A stretch of 63,077 nucleotides of DNA, filler included, from Octopus bimaculoides (taxonomy: Eukaryota): the NCBI RefSeq assembly GCF_001194135.2. It is 5 parts of 5 records of this genome, joined end to end, with 100 filler letters (N's around TTAATTAATTAA, not from the genome) between each part and the next. Parts side by side here need not be neighbours in the genome. Positions count along the whole stretch, not along the records: positions 41,558 to 60,315 come from NC_068998.1; positions 60,416 to 63,077 come from NC_068989.1; 3 more parts are not named here. One strand, 5' to 3'. The notes under the pieces are model-generated. The model was not told where the DNA came from. It saw only the letters and a program-made list of their open reading frames with translations, and did not search any database. Position numbers and translations under genes: made by a program. Numbering within the stretch: the first letter of the stretch is position 1; each line of letters opens with the position of its first letter. This document shows, piece after piece, positions 19,808 to 61,826 of the stretch.

Positions 19808-20843
19808 ATACATACCTGTAGAAAGATGTATGTGCATACAGAAATATATAAGTAAAGATATAAACACACACACACACACACGCGCGCACACACACATATA
19901 TGTATATGTATAGACAGATAGATAGATAAATAGATAGATAGATAGTTAAAGAGATAGATAGATTGATAGATAGATAGATACTATGTTCCACATATGTGTG
20001 TGCGTGCGAATACGAATGTACGTACACACACACACACATATATACATATAAATATACGTGTGTGAGTGTGTGTGTGTGGGGGGTGTATATACACACAAAG
20101 TTACAGTCACATGCACACATACACATATACACAGACACGCACACACAAACATACAAATACACACGGATATATATGAAGTTACATCCAGGGAAGAAAGAGA
20201 GAAGGAGAAGGAAAAATTAGTTATTCATAAATTTTTTTCTCTTAAAATTTTCCATATCAATTGTTCCAATATTCCTTTCATAATATTTCATAATTTACTG
20301 AGATTTTTAAGAATATTTACAAACTTTTTACTGTTTTTATTTCTTTAAATGTAGTTAGATTTTAAAATTATTCTTCGTCTTTGAAGGATTTTTGTATTCC
20401 CTTGATAAAATCGGATATTATTTCTCTTCTACATTTTCCGTTTTATTTTATTATTCATTTTTATTTTGATGTAATTAAACAGCAAACTCTTTTTATAATA
20501 TCTAATTTATTCAGTTTTCTTAGAAGATATGTTTCTATCTACCACTTCCAAACTCTGCTTCTATCATCGACGCCTTCAGAAATTTTCTATAACTTTATAA
20601 TCTCTTTTTACATAATTTTCTCTCTTTCTATTTCCATATATATATATATACATACCCTCATACCTGTCTATCTATCTACCAATATAGATATGAGTATGTT
20701 TAGACGCCTACTCACACACACACTTGTACATGGGTATATATATNNNNNNNNNNNNNNNNNNNNNNNNNNNNNNNNNNNNNNNNNNNNTTAATTAATTAAN
20801 NNNNNNNNNNNNNNNNNNNNNNNNNNNNNNNNNNNNNNNNNNN

Positions 20844-20948: not shown

Positions 20949-21061
20949 TAAAGAATAAAATGTTTTGAATGGTACAACAATGCACTATAATAGAAACAAT
21001 GGGCTATATACCTGTTGTATTATAGTGCATTGTTGTACCATTCAAAACTTTTTATTCTTTA
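20949..21061. repeat. Near-perfect fold-back adjacent to (TA)n
   Basis: 43-bp arms with 1 mismatch and a 25-nt spacer. Confidence 0.95.
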
Positions 21062-21537
21062 CAAACAATACACAATGCTTCAAGCGAACTACAATACTCT
21101 CCTGTGTATATATATATGTAAATATGTATATATGTATGTATATACATATGTATATATGCATATATATATAAGCATATATATATGCATATATGCATATATA
21201 TGTATATATGCATAAATATATGTGTAAATATGTATATATGTGTATGTATATATACGTATGTCTATATTTATATATNNNNNNNNNNNNNNNNNNNNNNNNN
21301 NNNNNNNNNNNNNNNNNNNNNNNNNNNNNNNNNNNNNNNNNNNNNNNNNTATATATATATATATATATATTTATTTATTTATATAAGGGCTAGCTACTTG
21401 ATAAATTCTTGTAAGAGAGTTCATCCTATTATTGAATTTATATTTATATATATATGTACACATATATATAGATGCTGGTATCAGACATTGAGAATGAGTG
21501 CTCAAAACCTCATTGGTGGATATTCTGTATTTGCAGT

Positions 21538-42949: not shown

Positions 42950-43980
42950 TTTCATTCCAGTTTCCTATTCAGGCTAGGTTTATCTTCTATTATGTGTGTA
43001 GCTTTTGTAATTTGTCTAAGCGCTGCATCTGTACTGTGTGGACAAGATTTTAATTTCTATGTTGTTGAGTGAGTCTCCGTGTTCCTGCTCAGCGTACTGG
43101 TACAGAACTGATGAGTTTTTCTCTTCCTTAAGTTCCCTCCAAAGTCCATTTACACGCTCTCCTATGCTCCGTGCCGTTTCCCCTGTGTACGTCGTTGTCT
43201 TGTTACTGCATCGTCCCTCTGTACATCTTATACTATAGACCACATTTCTGGCTTTACAGTTTGTTTGTGGGCTAAATCTACATACAGTACAGTTCCTATC
43301 AGTGCAGGGAGTTCTACTAAAAGGGTAGGTTCTACCGATAAGGGATTTGATAGGGTTGCCTGACCTTTCAACAACCTTAATTCTTAGCTTAAGTTTGTCT
43401 AGGGCCCTTCTAAAGCGGTACGCCAGTTCGCCTCCAGGGGTGGTGTCGACGAACATGACGCTCTGGTATTTGTGGCTATCATACCATGAGTTGGCCTTCC
43501 CTCTTTTTCTTCTTAATCTTTTCAATGGTGTTCCATGACTTGCTCCTATAAAGTGGGCAAACCCCATTCCTATCGTAACGATTGATAGTTTCAAATTTCC
43601 TCATAGCTCCTTTGTATATTCTGAACCATTTTTTATGGCTGTAACCTGAGAACTGCATGCGGTGAACGAAATGTTGTATATGTCTCTTTAACTCTGTAGG
43701 GTTGCACACGCGAGACACATTTTGCATTACTCTGACGAGGTCTGCCATCAATATATTGATTTTGGCACTGTCCGCGATAGCTGAGTTCCGGTGGATAAGG
43801 TATTTGGAGGCCATAGTTTTGGCATAGTGTGAATGAAGGATTCGGGTTTTATTATTCTCAGTTTCCAGCCAAAGTTCTGTATCTAGTACTGGTAGTCTAT
43901 GGTTAGGGTGTTTAGTAGGGTAGTCTATCGTGACCTTAATACTCTGGTGGATGATGTTAGCTATTTGCTAACGGCCATAG
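42950..43980 (-). mobile_element. Penelope-like element: RT end, thumb and GIY-YIG (Neptune/Naiad-like)
   Basis: TIDYPTKHPNHRLPVLD, HYAKTMASKYLIH, Cys linker PCTDRNCTVC, VVYSIRC..C..TYTGETARSIGER; about 2 frameshifts. Confidence 0.88.
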
Positions 43981-43984
43981 TCAT

Positions 43985-44447
43985 CATGGACTTGCCGCAT
44001 CAGCGCAACATCAGAACCATACCGTGCCCGACTCTCAGCCCGGATTTGAACCCAATCAAACACCTGTGGAATGAAATCCAGAGACGGCTAAATCAGGTGG
44101 TACCAAGGCCGACAACTCGTATGGAACTTGAGACAGCTTTCGTCAGAGTGTGGGCATAGGTGCCAATGGCTTTTGTGAACCGCCTTATCCACTCCATGTA
44201 CTGACGGTGTATGGCCGTTTTGAATAGCCAGGGAGGGCATACATGGTATTGAACATTTCATGCCCTACAATCTCGATGTGCTGGATCCGCCCACTAACAG
44301 AACGCATGACAGCGACCCATTACTGTGGTTAAAATGCATCCAAGAAATTGACTTTATCAGATTTATCAAAATTTATCTCTGACATAATGAAATTAAAACA
44401 TATTTCACAGTCACACACGTCTCGCGTTTCTTTTGCGGTTCAGTGTA
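43985..44447 (+). mobile_element. Tc1-like transposon 3' end
   Basis: SPDLNPIKHLW...GGHTWY* and right TIR ending ttttgcggttcagtg followed by TA (44446-44447). Confidence 0.92.
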
Positions 44448-50431: not shown

Positions 50432-50640
50432 TTATTCTTTTTTTTGTCTCAGTCGTTTGACTGCGGCTATGCTGGAGCACTGCCTTTAGTCAGGCAAATC
50501 GACCCCAGGACTTATTCTTTGTAAGCCTAGTACTTATTCTATCGGTCTCTATTGCCGAACCGCTAAGTGACGGGGACTAAACACACCAGCATCGGTTGTC
50601 AAGCGATGTTGGGAGGACAAACAGAGACACACAAACATAT
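50432..50640 (-). mobile_element. SINE family B 3' half
   Basis: Matches 13625-13800 and 30555-30648. Confidence 0.9.
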
Positions 50641-50696
50641 ATATATATAGATATATATAAGAATTTAAGGAATGGAGAAAACGCATGTTATAATTG

Positions 50697-50795
50697 CATA
50701 CTTTATTCCTACATATGTTTCAAAGGATTACAACCTGTGTGATCCATAGGGATCTTTGATATTAAAATTGTAACCTTCTCATCAGGGAAAGCATG
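50697..50795 (-). ncRNA. Type I hammerhead ribozyme in a (TA)n-anchored element
   Basis: CUGAUGA and GAAA cores intact; 11-bp stem II; palindromic stem III ACAUAUGU; GUA triplet; stem I of 4 bp + UAA bulge + 6 bp. Confidence 0.85.
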
Positions 50796-51676
50796 GGAAT
50801 CATCTTAAACGTAAGACATTATGACCGATNNNNNNNNNNNNNNNNNNNNNNNNNNNNNNNNNNNNNNNNNNNNNNNNNNNNNNNNNNNNNNNNNNNNNNN
50901 NNNNNNNNNNNNNNNNNNNNNNNNNNNNNNNNNNNNNNNNNNNNNNNNNNNNNNNNNNNNNNNNNNNNNNNNNNNNNNNNNNNNNNNNNNNNNNNNNNNN
51001 NNNNNNNNNNNNNNNNNNNNNNNNNNNNNNNNNNNNNNNNNNNNNNNNNNNNNNNNNNNNNNNNNNNNNNNNNNNNNNNNNNNNNNNNNNNNNNNNNNNN
51101 NNNNNNNNNNNNNNNNNNNNNNNNNNNNNNNNNNNNNNNNNNNNNNNNNNNNNNNNNNNNNNNNNNNNNNNNNNNNNNNNNNNNNNNNNNNNNNNNNNNN
51201 NNNNNNNNNNNNNNNNNNNNNNNNNNNNNNNNNNNNNNNNNNNNNNNNNNNNNNNNNNNNNNNNNNNNNNNNNNNNNNNNNNNNNNNNNNNNNNNNNNNN
51301 NNNNNNNNNNNNNNNNNNNNNNNNNNNNNNNNNNNNNNNNNNNNNNNNNNNNNNNNNNNNNNNNNNNNNNNNNNNNNNNNNNNNNNNNNNNNNNNNNNNN
51401 NNNNNNNNNNNNNNNNNNNNNNNNNNNNNNNNNNNNNNNNNNNNNNNNNNNNNNNNNNNNNNNNNNNNNNNNNNNNNNNNNNNNNNNNNNNNNNNNNNNN
51501 NNNNNNNNNNNNNNNNNNNNNNNNNNNNNNNNNNNNNNNNNNNNNNNNNNNNNNNNNNNNNNNNNNNNNNNNNNNNNNNNNNNNNNNNNNNNNNNNNNNN
51601 NNNNNNNNNNNNNNNNNNNNNNNNNNNNNNNNNNNNNNNNNNNNNNNNNNNNNNNNNNNNNNNNNNNNNNNNNNNN

Positions 51677-51711
<35 letters not shown>

Positions 51712-51730
51712 GTGTGTGTGTGTATATGTA

Positions 51731-51761
<31 letters not shown>

Positions 51762-51879
51762 GTGTGTGTCTGTGTATGTATCTGTATGTGTGTGTATGTG
51801 TATGTGTATATGTATGTATGTGTATGGATATGTGTGCATGTGTAAGTATGTCTGAGGGGGGTGCATGTATGTTTGTAAG

Positions 51880-51924
<45 letters not shown>

Positions 51925-52093
51925 ATATGTGTGTGTGTACATGTGTACAAATCTACGTATATGTAAGCATGTATAATTGTGTATGTATTTGTATAAAGCC
52001 ATATATATATATATGGGAGAATATACAAATAATAACAACAGACGAGGACAGGTGGTGTAAATAACAAAAGGATATATTATATATATATATATA

Positions 52094-52254
52094 TACGACG
52101 GGCTTCTTTCAGTTTCCGTCTACCAAATCAACTCACAAGACTTTGGTCGGCCCGAGGCTATAGTAGAAGACACTTGTCCACGGTGCCACGAAGTAGAACT
52201 GAACCCAGACCCATGTGGGTGGTAAGCAAGCTACTTACCACACAACCACTTCTG
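52094..52254 (-). mobile_element. SINE family B head
   Basis: Matches the 14162-14250 head and core. Confidence 0.9.
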
Positions 52255-52497
52255 TTGAAAAAAAGAACAAAATATACAGCAGGGCCAATTTTTTCGAGAA
52301 AAATCTCTTAGAAGATCTTCAGGAAAACAACAGCTCCGTTTTCGACAACATTGTTCGAAATAAAAACAGCAATTTCGAAAGTTTAAACGATAAGAGCCCT
52401 TTCGTTAGCAAAGCGATGGACGATGCAAGTACAAGTAACAACACCAGCAACAACAATAACAACAACAGCAACAACAACATCAGCAGCACCATCTGCT

Positions 52498-53813
52498 GTG
52501 GGTCCGCAGCTCGACACCTGGAAAGGCAGGCCCATGCCGACCAACAGCGTTGTGGGGCGCTGGACGGAAGGACCGGTTAAGTTGCTTGGGGTCTGGTTCA
52601 GTCAGACCTCCAGGTGGATAAGAACTGGGGTGAGGTGACATATAGGGTGGCCAGTCTCACCCAGAAATGGGCCGAGAAGAAGCTATCCCTAAAAGTCGGG
52701 CGGAGGTGGCAAATGCGTACATCGCATCTGTTATATACCACCCTCTGACTGTCGTCCCTAGCTCCGATTCGTAGCTGAACGGGCTGGTGCGCTTGCTCTT
52801 CTGCTTCCTGTGGAAGGGACAGGAACCGCTTGTCAGACAGCTGCGTGGAGGACTGGGCATGCCGTGGCTGATAATGCGCAGACATGCACTCTGGCTGCAA
52901 CATCTCCAGTGATACCTTAATGATGAGCATGAGTGGTCGCTGTGTGTTAGACGCACTCTTCCGGGGCTCGTCTCCTTGACAGAGCTGCAGTCCTGGATCA
53001 GGCATAGACCGAGACAGCGCATTTGGCATCTAGAGTGCTTCCAACAGCTCACAGCCCTCAACCAGTTGGACAGTGCAGTCGTTGGAAGTTCCACCTTGGA
53101 GTTCTATAGGTGAATAGTGTAGGACAAGAGCGACGATGTTCTCGGAGAGTTTCTGGGTGCTGAGAGGGATCAACTTGTTGGTCTCTTCCAGAGGACTTTC
53201 GGGCCGGGGCCTATGGATAACTTCCAGAAATCCCTGGCCTGGCAGTGCTACCGGGGGACTCAGCCGGTTCGGGATAAGCTCCACAAGCACGGGTGTGCAG
53301 TCATATAGTCTTGTCTGAGATGCACGCAGAGCGACGAAATGGTTCTGCATGCGAAAGAGGTTGTGTGGTGGACGCAATTGAAAGGGTTGAAGACGGGCAC
53401 CTTCCTCTTCGGCCAAAGCCTCATTGACTTTTTCAGCTTGCACCTGAAAAAGTGGAAAGTGGAGTTGTAGAGGGAGGTGTTGTTACCCAACAAATTTGTT
53501 AAAAGGTGGGTGAATATGACAAGGATGACCCGTGTGAATGAGCCTATTCTAAGTGTGCACCTGTAGGCCGGATGGGATGGAGAGGAGAGGGGTGCCTACC
53601 TGAGGTGCCTTTTGTGTTCGGAGGTCCAAAGTGTGTGTGGTTTTTTGGTCACCTCGGTGGAACTCTCCCTTATTGGGGATTACATTGTTTGTTTAATTTT
53701 ACTTGTTAATTATTATATTTATTTTTTTGCTGTTTACACGCCTTTTAACCCCACTATCTCTGACCTGTATATCATCTCTGTATATTGTGTTCGGCCCTTG
53801 TGGCCAATAAAGA

Positions 53814-53818
<5 letters not shown>
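52498..53818 (+). mobile_element. L1/Tx1-like LINE 3' portion with (ATT)n tail
   Basis: PVKLLGVWF, GGLGMPWL, SLAWQCYRG..PVRDKL and C-x2-C..H (zf-RVT-like); 3' UTR with aataaa; frameshifted. Confidence 0.82.
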
Positions 53819-53858
<40 letters not shown>

Positions 53859-53865
53859 CATTATC

Positions 53866-54035
53866 AAGGCGGTGAGCTGGCAGAATCGTTAGCACGCCGG
53901 GCGAAATGCTTAGCGGTATTTCGTCTGCCGCTCCATTCTGAATTCAAATTCCGCCAAGGTCGACTTTGCTTTTCATCCTTTCGGGGTTGATAAATTAAGT
54001 ACCCCAAATTACTGCCCTTGTGGCAAAACTTGAAA
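53866..54035 (+). mobile_element. SINE family A, internally deleted, directly after the LINE tail
   Basis: aaggcggtgagctggcagaatcg...; followed by (CTT)n(ATT)n. Confidence 0.9.
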
Positions 54036-55744
54036 TTCTTCTTCTTCTTCTTCTTCTTCTTCTTCTTCTTCTTCTTCTTCTTCTTCTTCTTCTATTATTA
54101 TTATTATTATTATTATGTAGCTAACATATGCGCACCCACACATTCACTTAAAGTAACTGAAAATATATTCCATTCAAAACCAATTTCTTCATATTTAAAA
54201 TAATAAGTTCTTTTAAAAAATTAGTCGAGATTGAGATTTTTTCTTTCAGCAAGTCCTTTCCAAAAATAGCCTGAAAATAATTGAAACTATATTTCATTAT
54301 AAAATAACTTTTTATCGCTTAAAAAAGGGAGGAAATTAGACGATGTTATGTTTCGATGAATTACTATGTTGTTTATAAGTATTTCAACGAATGTCTTTCT
54401 ATATATTTGATGTCGACTAATATATTCCTGTTCAGTCTGTCTTGTATGTAATTTGTCACTCGAACGATCGATCTCAACGAATTTGTATTGCCTGCAAGTT
54501 GTCCTTCGATCAATGTGCATTTGACCAATGTGTTTTTGGTTCATGTACCTTATTCCCACTTGAAACACTATATACTGCCTGTTATGGGAAATAATGCAAT
54601 AGACTGAACGTCAAGATTACACGAAGTTTAAATAGAATTAGTGGTTTAAGTCAAAATAGTGGAGCAGATTTATTTTGCTTGCATAGGTTTTGTGACAGTA
54701 CTTGACTTCAGCTTTTCAACCTTAAAAGGAAGCACGTACATAACTAATTCTCAGTAAGGAATCTATGTTCATATGGTACCTGTTATATGTTAGGTGGACT
54801 GCGCTAACAAGTGTTATGTGTCTAAATAAATAGTTCAGTACTGGTGTCAGAGAACTTCTACATTTGTTGTTGATAATTTGCGTTCTACAATTGCAATAAC
54901 AATAAGGCAGAATCACCACAGTAACATCAAGAAATCCAGGGCGATATATGGGAAGAAGAGGTGCGTTAATACGAACAAATATAATGAAGAAAAGTAAACA
55001 GCTGATGTGTAAGTGCAATCTTAATGAGCAGTAATATTTGGTTGAACAGGTGAAGAACAAATTCGTATATTAGGGCGAAACAGAGACTGAGGTGGTTGTG
55101 ACCTAACATTGACCCGTGAATATTGAGTCATATGAAGTGTATATCATTTGGGTGATGTGTGACATTGAATCATGCTTATTTAACTGTATAATATGCATGC
55201 TATCTCAGTGGGGTTATATGGCAATGAAACATTGACAATAAAAAAATCACTGAACTAACTAAAAATTATCACTCGCCGTGAGCACTAAACCATAGTCGAC
55301 GTTCGATTCTCGTTTGAGATTGAGGCAAAACCAATTGCTCCACACTCTTTTTCGAAAATGAGGAATTACTCCTGATATCCTCGTATCTCAGCTAACGCGT
55401 AGCGAAGCAACTAGAAAGATTGCTTGACCATGAGCAAGCATGGTCTCCCTTTGTCGGACACTTATTTCTACAGTTCTTTCTCTTGACGAAGCTTCAGTTC
55501 TAGATCAAGTGAAAACCAAGACGCCGATCAGTGTTCGGCGCTCACAGCCTTCTACTAGTTTGGTGTGGTATTCAATGGAGGACTAGCAGTAGAATAGGAA
55601 AGAGCGATGGTTTCTTTTCAATCTGCTTAACACGTTCTCTCCGAATTTCATTTTTATCCTTTTCTCCTTTTCTAGCTTTGATCACCTGTTTTATTTTCTA
55701 TGTTGTTCTGCAAATAATCAAGTAAGCTGTTTCGTTTCATCTGC

Positions 55745-55936
55745 AAACTCTATTCCACACCAATTAAGCGTTTTTCACGCCGGTCTCTTTTCAAGTACAA
55801 CCGGCTGATATCAGCTTTAAGATGGCTGGTTCTGCATATAGTCAACAACTTTCTAGTTTTTCTGTCAAATTTCTGAATTTCGCCTTTTACCCAATCCACA
55901 ATTTCGGTGCGGTAACGATTCTGCCAGCTCTCCGCC

Positions 55937-55938
<2 letters not shown>
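55745..55938 (-). mobile_element. Chimera of a SINE-A head and an R4/Dong ORF fragment
   Basis: aaggcggagagctggcagaatcgtta fused to RYRTEIVDWVKGEIQKFDRKTRKLL..ADISRLYLKR. Confidence 0.75.
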
Positions 55939-55973
<35 letters not shown>

Positions 55974-55976
<3 letters not shown>

Positions 55977-56221
55977 TTCCTATCATAGTAGGCGCATTAG
56001 GTATGATAAAAAATATTCAGATAAATACATAACAAAAACACCAGAACTAACAAATACATATAACATACAGAAAATAGCACTCCTAGGCACTGCACAAATC
56101 CTACGTAAAACACTTTCAATACAGTAACCATAAGAGCATCACAGCAAACCACAGCACATACCCAAGGCACACAAAGCTGCGCTCGGTAGTACAATGAAAG
56201 CACGTTATAAAAATAAGACTA

Positions 56222-56277
<56 letters not shown>

Positions 56278-56586
56278 TAATAATAATAAAGATGAAAAAT
56301 ACAATCCCTTAAAATTACAAGAACTTGGAATATGAAGATTGTAAACGTTGTGCCTATAATAATTGGAGCTGCAAGCCAAGATATAAACAAATGGTTGAAC
56401 GAGATTGGAATAGAATGCCCTGTAGAGCTTCTACAGAAGGTTTGCCTGTTAGGGACAGGAAAGATTATAAGAAGGATCTTAAGCACTTGAAAGTCTATTG
56501 AAAGATTGTGGATACCTAATGTTACAGGTAGTAATCTGCTACCCACATAAATTCTACCAGGAATAAGAACGCACCTGAATCAAAAC
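55974..56586 (+). mobile_element. Two head-to-tail R4/Dong RLE C-terminal fragments joined by (AAT)n
   Basis: IPIIVGALG..IQKIALLGTAQILRK* (55974-56224) and VPIIIG..LLQKVCLLGTGKIIRR* (56288-56586). Confidence 0.85.
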
Positions 56587-56658
56587 AATGATAATAATTA
56601 TCATCATCTTCATCATCAATTTATTACTATTATTATTATTGTTGTTGTTGTTATTATT

Positions 56659-56875
56659 AAGGTGGTGAGCTAGCTGAATTGTTTGCACGTCGGGCAAAAT
56701 GCTTAGCGGCGTTTCGTCTGTCTTTACGTTCTGAGTTCAAATTCCGCTTAGGCCAACTTTGCCTTTCATCCTTTCGGGGGTCGATAAAATATGTACCAGT
56801 TGAACACTGGGTTCGATGTAATCGACTAATCTCCTCCCCCGATATTGAGGGCCTTGTGTCAACATTTGAAATCAC
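56659..56875 (+). mobile_element. SINE family A
   Basis: Full-length match to the other copies. Confidence 0.9.
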
Positions 56876-56903
56876 CATCATCATCATCATCATTATTATT
56901 ATT

Positions 56904-57232
56904 TGGTTTGACTCAGGTTCGGTTTTATTCTTGGTAGAATTTATGAGTGTAGCCGGTTTCTACCTGTAACCTTAGGTACCCACAAGTTTTCTGTAGTCAT
57001 TAGAGTGCTTAGGACTCTCCTGATAATCCTTGCTGTCTCTAAGAGACAAACTTTCTGTAAGAGCTCTGCCGAGCATTCTATTCCAATCTCCTTCAGCCAT
57101 TTGTCTATATCTTGGCAACCTTTACAGTTCACATACTCCAAAAATTCTTCCCATTTCAAATTTTAAGGGATTGTATTTTTTTTGTTTTTCTTCCTCTTTT
57201 TTTTTACGATCTTGGAATCAAACAGGCATGAT
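56904..57232 (-). mobile_element. R4/Dong RLE C-terminal fragment
   Basis: EIGIECSAELLQKVCLLETARIIRRVL; same family as 56288-56586. Confidence 0.85.
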
Positions 57233-57299
57233 GGGTTGATTAGTAAGCACATTTGTTGTTGTTGTTGTTGTTGTTGTTGTTATTATTATTATTATTATT

Positions 57300-57460
57300 A
57301 AGGTGGCGAGCTGGCAGAATCGTTAGCGCGCTGGACGAAATACTTAGCTGTATTTCGCCCGTCACCAAAATTTCAGGCCCCGTGCCTATAATAAAAAGAT
57401 CAACTTAATAATTATTAACTTAATAATATTATTAAGATTATCATTATAACAATTATTAAC

Positions 57461-57499
<39 letters not shown>

Positions 57500-57730
57500 G
57501 TAGTAGTAGTAGTAGTAGTAGTAGTAATGTTTACTTTAAGATGGCGACCAGAATCTTTACTGCGCTTAACAAAATGCTTACTTTCTGATGTCAAATTCCG
57601 TCGAAGTCGACTGTATAATTTTTTCCCTTTCGAGATCAATGAAATACGTACCAATTGAGCACTGAAGTCAATGTAATTGACTCGCCCTCCCCTCAAGTTA
57701 CTGGCCTTGTGCCTATATTAGGAACCATTA
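57300..57730 (+). mobile_element. Two SINE family A copies (deleted 57300-57400; degenerate 57538-57730)
   Basis: Head and tail motifs present; separated by ATT/AGT repeats. Confidence 0.8.
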
Positions 57731-59229
57731 TTTTTATAATTTCTCTTTAACATTTCTTTCTTTAAATTGTCATGTGACACTAATGGATTAGTAGTTCCGC
57801 TGAAAACTTTCAATGTGGATGACAAAACATGGATTATATAATGTCTAATATAGTTTTACGTGTAATGGTTTTACTGTTTTTGTGAATAAGGAAAATGCTA
57901 CGTGAATGTAGAAAAATCAACCAAACTAAGTGGAATATCAATAAGAATAAAATAAAAAAGTCGAAAGAAGATTTACAGAGCGAAGTTATTAGTTACAGAG
58001 AAATACATGATACACATGCATCATCATATTGTTTGGATAGTTTTTCAGATTGGTAGAAAGTGCGATATATGAGTATAAGAAAATCAGAGATGAGAAACTA
58101 ATGCATATCCTTGGATAAAGATTAAGAAATGAACGAAACTCGCACAAATCTAGAGGGGTTTATATTAATTTCGAACTTAGCCATACGATCTAAAGTTTAT
58201 GAGATTTCTCCTGTGGCGACAGGCTGAACATGTGCAATGCTGATGCTTTTGCAGTAGATGCTGCAAAGCAGTTTAGTGTTGTTCGACACCGTTAGCTGTA
58301 ATTTTTTCTGTGGCAATGAATAACTGAAGAAATTAATATATTTTAGACACACGCTCAATTTTGCAAATCGAAGTGGGCACGTAGATTTTTTCCAATCGGT
58401 TATGTTATCACAGTATTGTGATATTTCTGCATATTCTGACATTTTCTAAATTCGGTGTTGTTAGAACACCAAACACGTTAAGTTAGATATAAAGATTGTC
58501 TTTTGGTATTAATATTGCTTTCGTCGATAATAATTATTTTTAATAAGCTTGCAGGCTGTTTGCGACATCGTGCCTGAAGAGTCACTGTAGTTCTATATAT
58601 CGTTGGCAGTGAAATTTGGGTGGTATGTGGCGAGCAGGTACCCGTCGCTGAGAGACGTAGTATGTCTAAACTACGTGATCTGGCAGTTCCGGGGCTCATA
58701 GCAGACGATTCCTGATTCTCAAGGCAAATATCGCAGTATTCGGTGTTGTAACAAAACATTCCAGTTCAATTGGATATAACATTAACTATTTACGATTTGT
58801 GCGACTATGGAAATCGATTTATCATGTTCATTTGTACGTATTACACAGGGTGTTAAACATATATATAAGTTTTCAACGATTTTCATCATTAGAAAATGCT
58901 TTTATTATGGCAGAAATCAAACGCTTAATTCATTAAGTTGTGACTAAATTTAGCCATTCTCCTTGGAGAATATACGTATAAGTTTTCGAAAAAAAAGAAA
59001 AAAAAGAAAAGTAGATTCACTAAAAAGTTACACCTATCGATCTATTCTTGCAGAAGGTCGTCATAGATGTTTATATATCAATTTTTTTTTTCATATTGAA
59101 GATCAGCCACCCAAGGTTCATATGTTGACAGGGTCCTCATTTGTGATGAAACTGAGTAATGTCTTACCTACTGTTATCGAGTATCTATTCAAACGAGTTC
59201 TGGAATGGTTATGCGATTAAGAATTTCGT

Positions 59230-60295
59230 TTAAATATAATCTTGTGAGTATCAACGAGCCATATGTTTCACTACGACAAATGCCGACAGAACAACTGTAG
59301 TTAATCAACATGCGATCTGCAGGGAGGAACTCAACGTACTGATGGTGCATACCGACCACAGATAACACTGTGGGATGCACACTCCCACTGCTCCATCAAC
59401 GACATCAAAACATGCTTGAGAACCTGTGTGTTATACGAAGTAGTGTGCAAGAAATGTGGGGCATCCTACAAAGGTAGCACTATCAGGAAACTGCAGGTCC
59501 GTATAAAGGACCACATGCACACGGATACTTCAATAAAGAAACACCCTAGGAAATGCCAAACCCTGAATTTCAAAGTCTCCATCTGGGCAATTCAACGCAA
59601 CGGGAGCCCCCCTCTGTCACACACTTTATAAACAAATTGGGACCAGCCATTAACAAGAAGAAACTACACAAAGCAGGCTGGTTTCTATAGCAACACCAGT
59701 CTGTGCATGTTACCTTCCTCCTTTCTCCCCACCTCCTTCCTCCCCACTTCCTCCCCTCACACACACCTGAGCAACGACTTTTTCCACCTACCGCTTTTAA
59801 CAAATGTCCTGAAGAAGGAGTCTTCACCACGAAATTTAGAAATACAAGGTAAACTGCAACTTTATTTTGTTTTCTTTTCTTTTTGTAGTTTACTTGGTAC
59901 TTTCTCGCATTGTTCCGGCTTTACACAACAACCTTCTTTAATATATTTTCATATGAACTTCAATGAGGACAAAATGAATATTCGCATCAGACTAACTAAA
60001 ATTTCCCAAGCACACAAGAACCGGCTTGTAGATGAAACTTCAGATTAGAAACTCAGGGGACTGAGGCAGCTTTCTCACTTCTGAAGAGTTCCAATACAAA
60101 CACTTCTGAATCGCGTAATAACAGCAAGTGCAGGATTCTTTATAACCAGTGATAAGTTGTCATTACATTCATCACTAAGTTCTTTCACTGCAACCACAAG
60201 TTTTGTCATTGCAATCACCTCGGAACTGATTCAATTGAACTAACTCTCAGTCGTTTCAATACAACCGAAACTACAGAGTTGTTTTAAACACCACT
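59230..60295 (+). mobile_element. Penelope-like element: GIY-YIG 3' end, putative pseudo-LTR and possible restart
   Basis: CLRTCVLYEVVCKKCGASYKGSTIRKLQVRIKDH (GIY-YIG); decayed ctgaaga..gaaa at 59809-59835; following segment only tentatively assigned. Confidence 0.7.
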
Positions 60296-60415
60296 GATAT
60301 ATATATATATATATANNNNNNNNNNNNNNNNNNNNNNNNNNNNNNNNNNNNNNNNNNNNTTAATTAATTAANNNNNNNNNNNNNNNNNNNNNNNNNNNNN
60401 NNNNNNNNNNNNNNN

Positions 60416-60452
<37 letters not shown>

Positions 60453-60983
60453 TTGCCCACTGACTTCGAAACCCTATGATGGAAGATTGTATGATTTTTA
60501 ATATATTAGGCCTCCTGGCTTCTTTTCTAGGCCATGTTTTCTTTCCTATTCCCGCTTCCTTTTGTTTATTTTTTGGACACTTTTGTATTCATTCTAATGA
60601 AGCTCAATGTTCTAGTTCGAATATCCTATGAAGATGAAGAATATTATTTTTGCAATTCTTTTGTAGGCACTGACTGACATCGGAAGCAGAAATGGCCATA
60701 AGAATTGTTATGTCACATAAATGTTATGTCGTGTTTTGTATTAAATAATAAGCTACAGATGTGGTCCAATTGATTTGTTTGTTGATCTAAAGTTTTCTCC
60801 ATTTTCTTATTATTTAAATTTGATTCCTGATCAACTTTTGTTTATTCTGTTGTTACCTGTACTCTATGAGCATAGTGTGCCTGTATACCCATGCCCAGGG
60901 ATAGCACGGATAACTGATACTGATGGTAAATTTGGATATTCAATCCCTAGTTGGTTACTATAGCCACTAACTCTGCTTACCTT

Positions 60984-61019
<36 letters not shown>

Positions 61020-61175
61020 TATAATGCAAGAGAGTTAGGGGTTGAGGATTCAACCCATTGAGGGATAGTATCTATCTAATATACTGCTGGGAGGGTACCC
61101 AATTATTGTTACACTAGTGTTATACCAAGTGTAATAAGTGGGTGCGGGTAAAAGGGGGTTATTTTACCCTAAATT

Positions 61176-61308
61176 TATATAGCAATAAGAAAATGGAGGA
61201 GAATATGCGGTATCTATTGACTTGCAGACAGTGTATAATTCAATGGAATACACTGGTCTGCAAGTCGATGGATACCGCATATTCTCCTCCATTTTCTTAT
61301 TGCTATAT
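61176..61308. repeat. Near-perfect fold-back ending in (TA)n
   Basis: ~60-bp arms with 2 substitutions and 1 indel. Confidence 0.95.
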
Positions 61309-61416
61309 ATATATATATATATATTGAATTAGAGGTTAAAATAACCTCATTAAGGGACAGTAATATCCAATGAATTACTGGTTCATTGCCTGGTATTTTT
61401 TGTGAATAATAATATT

Positions 61417-61826
61417 CAAAAGATAATTTAGAAAATGGAGATATAGCATTAATATAATTTATTATCTGCAAAAGATTAAATTACAATAAATAAATTATTA
61501 TATTAGGCAAAATCTCATCAGAAGGGTAGGAAAGATATACCATTAGGTTATTAGGTGTTGTGTTTTCAAATCATCTTAGCAGGCTTATACCAATTATTAG
61601 CTACAAGATAATATTCAGTCTGCTGAAATGATTTGAAAACACAACCCCTAATAACCTATCAGTATATCTTTTCTACTCCTCTGATGAGATTTTGCCTAAT
61701 ATAATGATTTAATTATTGCAATTTAATCTTTTAGGCTAAATTGAAAAAGCTGTAAGAGAATATGTTGGATTTTTGCAGATAATAAATAATATTAATGCTA
61801 TATCTCCATTTTCTAAATTTTCTTTG
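61417..61826. repeat. Long fold-back element carrying a hammerhead motif
   Basis: Arms 61417-61585 and 61617-61826; the right arm has an extra ~42 nt. Confidence 0.93.
61668..61762 (+). ncRNA. Type I hammerhead ribozyme, one stem III mismatch
   Basis: CTGATGA 61681-61687; 12-bp stem II with one U-U; GAAA 61743-61746; A-AGCT-G-TA; stem I is weak. Confidence 0.65.

What the first reader, a model, noticed from the sequence alone, without database searches (positions are those of the whole stretch)
50659..61826. Candidate (TA)n-anchored retrozyme-like system
The two hammerhead elements differ in sequence but share architecture: long stem II with inner hairpin, G10.1-U11.1 closure, AC-NNNN-GU palindrome and GUA triplet. 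They also share a downstream end motif abutting (TA)n: ctccattccttaaattct-TA, ctccattttctaaattttctttg-TA, and ctccattttcttattgc-TA in the 61176 hairpin; the 20949 arm ends similarly. I infer a family group of non-coding, self-cleaving retroelements that use TA tracts, form inverted junctions, and borrow Penelope RT. I do not know whether this variant has been described.
Basis: inference. Interest (0 to 1): 0.75.

Follow-up and report, generated by a model that had tools for sequence, protein, structure and literature searches.

The report
Truncated Hydra-type Penelope ends, not retrozymes
The hammerhead-bearing repeats are cut-short tail ends of three protein-coding Penelope-type jumping genes sitting in TA repeats, a known arrangement rather than a new non-coding parasite, though the youngest family lacks the cysteine motif proposed to aim such elements at TA repeats.

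Summary
The observation mostly holds, but the retrozyme reading fails. The hammerheads at 50659-50829 (A) and 61630-61826 (B) and the 61176 hairpin (C) belong to three abundant repeat families. Walked upstream, each runs through a 2-3 kb microsatellite-rich UTR into a GIY-YIG endonuclease ORF. For A and C this is seen in single loci that contain assembly gaps; for B through interrupted loci. RT pieces of A and C carry Hydra-clade motifs. Copies are variably 5'-truncated, no head-to-tail dimer was found in 455 loci, and 38 of 39 back-to-back pairs have one short and one tailed end, as known for Penelope-like elements. The CTCCATT end motif is modestly significant in A, B and C (p about 0.002-0.009) but not in the 20949 hairpin, which ends an unrelated Penelope-like family. 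Departures from published Hydra elements: long UTRs, 130-170-nt tails, long stem II, and no CxCX5C linker in family A, despite purifying selection, recent activity and TA targeting. Earlier scan notes reported truncated Hydra ends in this genome and a cysteine-less linker in other genomes.

The parts
50659..50829 (-). Family A 3' end (short end, no tail) of a Hydra-type Penelope-like element; 5' side cut by an assembly gap
   Evidence: 28 of the listed matches are 100% identical over 171 nt, the window's own copy included; 1,736 candidates, 40 scored. Linked to an EN ORF in L286.
50706..50789 (-). Type I hammerhead of family A; core at 50785, 55-nt stem II, palindromic stem III, predicted cut after 50710
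50671..50677 (-). CTCCATT end motif, 19 nt before the short end
50638..50658 (.). (TA)n target tract at the A short end
51677..52013 (+). Internal piece of the family A 3' UTR, opposite in orientation to the A end and stopping at an internal TA run; likely the inverted partner of the same insertion across the gap
   Evidence: the pairing across the gap is inferred
60984..61023 (.). (TA)n tract at the C tail end
61020..61234 (-). Family C left arm: about 60 nt of 3' end plus the 155-nt tail
   Evidence: 95% to L212
61236..61303 (+). Family C right arm, short end; truncated downstream of the hammerhead
   Evidence: linked to EN ORF in L173 and to an RT-EN ORF in L212
61304..61323 (.). (TA)n tract shared by the C short end and the B tail end
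61324..61585 (-). Family B left arm with tail; internal deletions remove the 3' half of the hammerhead and part of the tail
61580..61826 (+). Family B right arm, short end; hammerhead 61681-61754 with C15.2 changed to A; CTCCATT at 61804-61810
   Evidence: EN link via L337, L357, L318
61827..61844 (.). (TA)n tract at the B short end
20949..21103 (.). Family D inverted pair (short left arm, right arm with a tail of about 43 nt): end of an unrelated CCHH-type Penelope-like family, not part of the A/B/C group

Best explanation
A, B and C are variably 5'-truncated 3' ends of three protein-coding Penelope-like retrotransposon families with Hydra-clade protein motifs, most sitting in (TA)n, and each insertion likely arises when the element's own RT-endonuclease cuts a TA tract and starts reverse transcription from both cut ends. 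SHOWN here: the link of each end to an endonuclease ORF; two preferred 3' end points per family (short end and tail end); back-to-back pairs with one end of each kind; TA flanks; no fixed 5' end. INFERRED by analogy with the anole Poseidon element (PMC11167929): the two end points are the two internal RT start sites, and a dimeric protein extends both target strands; both cDNAs usually stop early and are joined head to head. INFERRED and untested: CTCCATT helps position the inner start site; TA runs inside the long UTR serve as extra priming sites; the hammerhead cuts as a dimer or with protein help. An intact hammerhead need not be carried by the inserted copy.
For: C: L173 holds EN C-terminus, UTR (one 290-N gap), hammerhead, end motif and (TA)n on one strand. 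L212 holds a partial upstream pLTR, the tail and then a frameshifted RT-EN ORF, the partial-tandem layout. A: L286 holds EN, UTR (two gaps), hammerhead, tail and (TA)n on one strand; an A-family RT piece lies in L332. B: EN and B end on one strand in L337 with nested insertions between, EN joined to the B UTR in L357, EN inverted beside the B UTR in L318. Pairs: 39 of 40 same-family neighbours point 3' outward, none head-to-tail; 38 of the 39 have one short and one tailed end (32 full tails, 6 partial), and the 39th is the window's B, whose left tail follows a deletion. Strict TA flank: A 41 of 51, B 21 of 36, C 35 of 43 gap-free ends, background 4.8%. 5' ends: in tail-selected A copies they range from under 30 to 307 nt upstream, and 15 of 23 gap-free copies stop short of the hammerhead core. 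Protein motifs match Hydra sequences read in the supplement of PMC8557442 and the nearest database proteins.
Against: No intact full-length ORF was seen for any family, and every linking locus has gaps or nested insertions. No B-family RT was recovered, so B's clade rests on the endonuclease. No tree against a named PLE reference set was built; Pfam gave no significant match. B 5' ends cluster mildly: 7 of 29 at 197-209 nt. Published Hydra elements are mostly under 3 kb with short stem II, unlike these. C and D pairs were fetched with hairpin queries, so the share of inverted copies is inflated; tail-selected samples show a detectable inverted partner in 5 of 30 A and 4 of 29 B loci.
Confidence: 0.9

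Rival explanations
1. Non-LTR retrozymes: short non-coding monomers, self-cleaved from tandem transcripts, circularised and copied in trans by a Penelope RT.
For: Type I hammerheads with palindromic stem III; most copies are short and ORF-less; retrozymes are reported to derive from pLTRs (bioRxiv 10.64898/2026.07.22.740005); unchecked scan notes report true tandem units elsewhere in this genome.
Against: No same-orientation pair of A-D ends in 455 loci; no monomer length; each family leads upstream into its own ORF.
Confidence: 0.04
2. Mixed origin: autonomous elements exist, but a share of the short copies, B above all, comes from a short non-autonomous derivative of about 205 nt plus tail, mobilised in trans.
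For: 7 of 29 tail-selected B copies start 197-209 nt before the short end; many loci also start about 12 nt before the query.
Against: The other 22 B copies spread from under 26 to 695 nt, and A shows no cluster. A local RT stop would give the same cluster.
Confidence: 0.12
3. Foldback or MITE-type DNA transposons with terminal inverted repeats inserted at TA.
For: The 61176, 61420 and 20949 structures look like TA-flanked hairpins.
Against: Arms are unequal by a fixed tail, junction positions vary, many copies show no inverted partner, and the families carry EN (and for A, C, D also RT) ORFs.
Confidence: 0.01

Closest known systems
Hydra clade of C-terminal EN+ Penelope-like elements, including Hydra-1_Obim (Craig et al. 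2021, PMC8557442)
   Same: Single RT-EN ORF; RW and DKT motifs; no CCHH; CxxC and CxH around the EN end; CxCX5C linker in B and C; hammerhead in the 3' end; (TA)n insertion; 5' truncation; inverted copies; tail at one end only.
   Different: UTR 2-3 kb and microsatellite-rich (C element about 5.5-6 kb against 1.1-3.0 kb for the consensus sequences in the Hydra sheet, some incomplete); tails 130-170 nt against 30-40; stem II 53-105 nt against short stems with 3-10-nt loops; Asn-rich insertions in the ORF; family A lacks the linker cysteines. The listed Hydra-1_Obim hammerhead differs from A, B and C.
Poseidon element of Anolis (Frangieh et al. 2024, PMC11167929)
   Same: Two 3' end points bounding a tail; AT-rich targets; both target strands used; hammerhead cleavage not needed for insertion in vitro.
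   Different: Different clade; there the RT start sites lie 111-118 nt inside the ORF with a short tail, here the C tail ends about 150 nt before the ORF.
Minimal hammerheads of metazoan PLEs (Cervera and de la Pena 2014, PMC4209133)
   Same: Short palindromic helix III predicted to need a dimer; enlarged helix II; mostly single motifs or opposite-strand pairs from truncated PLEs.
   Different: Helix II there is 6-8 bp; here it is a 45-105-nt domain with inner hairpins, in 10 or more families (families told by eye).
Metazoan non-LTR retrozymes (Cervera and de la Pena 2020, PMC7229834)
   Same: Type I hammerhead, low GC, Penelope machinery.
   Different: Retrozymes are 150-450-bp tandem monomers without ORF, expressed as circles; A-C are truncated ends of coding elements with no tandem units.

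Membership tests
Non-LTR retrozyme | Type I hammerhead | tested here: met
   (motif and covariation only; cleavage not assayed)
Non-LTR retrozyme | Head-to-tail tandem monomers of 150-450 bp | tested here: not met
   0 same-orientation pairs in 455 loci; 0 of 40 neighbour pairs
Non-LTR retrozyme | No protein coding | tested here: not met
   ORFs upstream in A, B, C
Non-LTR retrozyme | Abundant circular RNA | not testable with these tools
   Only assembled contigs of runs guessed to be RNA were offered
EN+ Penelope-like element | One ORF with RT and C-terminal GIY-YIG EN | tested here: met
   C in L212, broken by frameshifts; A as RT and EN pieces in L332; B EN only
EN+ Penelope-like element | pLTR with hammerhead, partial tandem, inverted 5'-truncated copy, one-sided tail | tested here: met
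Hydra clade | RWK motif and DKG changed to DKT | tested here: met
   A RVRWI and SDKT, C RIRWR and SDKT: RW kept, K varies; not seen for B
Hydra clade | No CCHH in EN; CxxC and CxH at the EN end | tested here: met
Hydra clade | CxCX5C linker (families B and C) | tested here: met
   L342, L226, L215 and others
Hydra clade | CxCX5C linker (family A) | tested here: not met
   0 of 33 translations at 71% identity or more have more than one Cys there; 29 have none. A is therefore filed as a Hydra-derived variant, not a typical member
Hydra clade | Insertion into (TA)n | tested here: met
   A 41/51, B 21/36, C 35/43 against 4.8%
Hydra clade | Generally short, under 3 kb (descriptive) | tested here: not met
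   C ORF about 2.7 kb plus UTR about 2.5-3 kb
Hydra clade | RT falls in the Hydra clade on a tree | not tested
   Named reference sequences were readable in the supplement only; comparison was by motif

The most novel reading that the evidence does not exclude
An octopus radiation of long Hydra-type elements has evolved kilobase microsatellite UTRs, 130-170-nt tails and a conserved long-stem hammerhead. Its youngest lineage (A) targets (TA)n with no zinc-finger linker, so targeting resides in the nuclease core or in RNA-target pairing, with CTCCATT acting as a shared signal that sets the inner RT start site.
Probability: 0.4. Interest if true: 0.55.

Novelty: new variant of a known kind. Interest (0 to 1): 0.35.

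Why it matters
The claim of a new non-coding system falls, and thousands of hammerhead hits here should be annotated as Penelope-like ends. What remains useful: (1) family A is a natural test of the proposal that the cysteine linker aims these elements at microsatellites; (2) the one-short-end, one-tailed-end rule in 38 of 39 pairs is genomic support, in two further clades, for the two-start-site mechanism shown in vitro for one element; (3) the long-stem hammerheads would likely be missed by descriptors with short stem II; (4) UTRs full of TA and TG runs may help spread microsatellites in this genome (inference).

Tried and rejected
Rfam scan of the window: no hammerhead family among the best 150 of 192 matches shown; those are mostly microRNA models on simple repeats. 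The repeat finder was swamped by microsatellites. Pfam: nothing at the curated cut-off for 14 proteins. PDB sequence search: nothing below E 1.7. RNA: no RNA holder listed; 4 runs laid were contigs only and showed two opposite-strand joints and no go-back joint, which is no evidence on expression, cleavage or circles. CTCCATT as a universal signal: with up to 1 mismatch it occurs within 200 nt after the hammerhead in 11 of 30 pattern loci, near my rough chance estimate of about 9; support is limited to its fixed place in A, B, C and, by eye, one or two further families. The A, B and C 3' regions do not otherwise align above shuffle level. Family D as a member of the group: rejected. A fixed 5' end for C, suggested, vanished when flanks were read. 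The EN upstream of the B copy in L244 is a separate insertion. Look-up of earlier notes by the A sequence found nothing.
Full report
SETTING. The window is a pack of five stretches (joints near 20744, 36648, 41458 and 60316), so the finding is not one locus. Hammerhead A lies on G000:C18 (L012, L256), hammerhead B and hairpin C on C9, the 20949 hairpin (D) on C8. The two best database relatives of the ORF found below are named Octopus proteins, so the host is probably an octopus.

OBSERVATION. Both hammerhead motifs, their long stem II and the CTCCATT motif 19-23 nt before (TA)n are present. The window's B copy has lost C15.2 (25 of 27 B copies keep it), its left arm lacks the 3' half of the ribozyme, and the window's C copy has no ribozyme. 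The architecture is common and real: 2,933 exact pattern matches against 12 controls, with stem II and stem I paired across families far above partner shuffles (101 of 120 and 90 of 120 cells in the first 30 matches). The longest string shared by the last 30 nt of A, B and C is CTCCATT; 175 of 20,000 dinucleotide shuffles and 44 of 20,000 draws from the elements' own 3' regions reach that length. The motif was picked by eye first, so this is modest. With D added the shared string is 5 nt, at chance level.

FAMILIES. First-look candidates: A 1,736, B 493, C 1,123, D 1,878; 40 were scored each. A is young: 28 listed matches are identical over 171 nt, the window's copy included. Most B copies are 87-94% identical to the window's. 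Each family ends at one of two points: a short end just after the motif, or a tail end about 165 (A), 130 (B), 155 (C) or 43 (D) nt further on. With a strict flank-only test, (TA)3 follows 41 of 51 A, 21 of 36 B, 35 of 43 C and 26 of 72 D gap-free ends, against 735 of 15,398 random positions; 23 gap-adjacent ends were set aside.

WHAT LIES UPSTREAM. Family C was walked in three steps to an endonuclease ORF. L173 shows EN C-terminus, 2,973 nt of UTR (with a 290-N gap and a duplicated segment), the hammerhead, the motif and (TA)n on one strand. L212 shows the 3' half of the hammerhead, the motif, the tail, about 150 nt of leader and a 2.7-kb RT-EN ORF broken by frameshifts: the partial tandem of Penelope-like elements. 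Family A was walked in three steps to L286, where a truncated EN, UTR, hammerhead, tail and (TA)n lie on one strand across two gaps; N-terminal and RT pieces lie in L332. Family B is linked less directly: L337 has EN and B end on one strand with a gap and nested insertions between, L357 joins an EN piece to the first 46 nt of the B UTR probe (87%, E 2e-9), and L318 has the EN inverted beside the B UTR. Family D leads within about 330 nt to a different RT-EN with CCHH-type residues; its clade was not determined.

NOT RETROZYMES. Metazoan retrozymes are tandem monomers of 150-450 bp expressed as circles (PMC7229834, passages); the 2026 preprint counts as active only units with two consecutive hammerheads. 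Here no same-orientation pair occurs in 455 loci. Of 40 distinct neighbour pairs within 1.5 kb, 39 point 3' outward and 1 inward; 38 of the 39 combine a short and a tailed end. In copies chosen by the tail alone, 5' ends spread continuously: 15 of 23 gap-free A copies (of 30) stop before the hammerhead core; B shows a mild cluster, 7 of 29 at 197-209 nt, which I cannot explain and keep as a rival.

CLADE. Craig et al. define Hydra elements by RWK, DKT, no CCHH, a CxCX5C linker, CxxC and CxH motifs, canonical hammerheads and (TA)n insertion, and describe 5' truncation, inverted copies and a one-sided 30-40-bp tail for PLEs generally. A and C meet the RT motifs; A, B and C the EN motifs. Their sequences follow the Hydra proteins shown in the supplement motif by motif (by eye). 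One octopus Hydra family is published (2,507 bp, short-stem hammerhead); its hammerhead differs from A, B and C.

MECHANISM. In the anole element RT starts at two internal sites that bound the tail, both target strands are cut and extended, a dimer is predicted, and hammerhead cleavage is not needed for insertion (PMC11167929). I infer the same here: the protein cuts a TA tract, one end primes at the inner site and the other at the outer site, both cDNAs stop early and join head to head. Both end points abut TA-like bases in the element itself, and the window's inverted A piece stops at an internal TA run, which suggests pairing with the target; the anole work found no homology at the start site, so this step is uncertain. 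The palindromic stem III suggests dimer cleavage (PMC4209133, passages); untested.

WHAT IS UNUSUAL. (1) Family A has no linker cysteines: of 33 translations at 71% identity or more, 29 have none and 4 have one, whereas B, C and most other families keep four. Its EN is under purifying selection (15 stop-free, gap-free copies of the 30 loci fetched; dN/dS 0.15 between subgroups at dS 0.83, 0.14-0.22 within). So the lineage likely stayed active without the motif, which was proposed to mediate microsatellite targeting. Trans-mobilisation of A ends by another family is not excluded. (2) UTRs of 2-3 kb, tails of 130-170 nt and stem II of 53-105 nt exceed the published Hydra values. Searches for prior description found none of these points in the held library, which lacks most subscription journals and Repbase. 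Earlier scan notes, unchecked, report truncated Hydra ends in this genome and a cysteine-less linker in two other genomes; I had found both before reading them.

PAPERS SEEN. bioRxiv 10.64898/2026.07.22.740005: parts 1-3 of 5 (abstract to discussion); its supplements were not seen and may list related families. PMC8557442: passages, section 11, supplement parts 1-2 and searched passages. PMC11167929: parts 1-2 of 4. PMC7229834, PMC4209133, PMC13282606 (no mention of hammerhead or Hydra in the main text): passages. Others: search listings only. The labels twin priming, MITE, Dong/R4 and Poseidon-type EN are recalled and come from no call.

VERDICT. Real and abundant, but a known kind of element with a few undescribed traits. 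Interest 0.35; new variant of a known kind.

Noticed in passing
G000 genome-wide (L366-L395): At least 10 further repeat families (told by eye from the first 100 matches) share the long-stem-II hammerhead with palindromic loop 3; 3 of 30 loci have Hydra-type EN fragments within 1.5 kb.
   Followed up: partly
window 59383-59850: Fragment of a CCHH-type GIY-YIG ORF (35% to the family D EN) followed by a minimal hammerhead core at 59809: another Penelope-like end.
   Followed up: partly
window 43641-44027 (-): Weak match to the family D RT (E 7e-5); likely another Penelope-like fragment.
   Followed up: no
window 56375-57116: 214-nt inverted pair holding a reading frame that resembles the C-terminal nuclease region of Dong/R4-type LINEs (label recalled), flanked by (TAA)n runs.
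   Followed up: no
L337 (G000:C7:52015000-52024900): A family B copy carries nested insertions of family D, another Hydra-type family and a SINE inside its UTR: the TA-rich UTRs act as targets for other elements.
   Followed up: partly
L350 and L384: A more distant lineage (38-52% identical to A) also lacks the four-cysteine linker, so the loss may be old.
   Followed up: no
L212, L248, L249, L335: Long Asn-rich, (AAT)n-like insertions between RT and EN in families A and C.
   Followed up: no
L460: A family A tail copy whose 5' side abuts telomere-like (CTAACC)n repeats.
   Followed up: no
family B loci L486-L514: Mild cluster of 5' ends 197-209 nt before the short end, about 60 nt upstream of the hammerhead core; unexplained.
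   Followed up: partly
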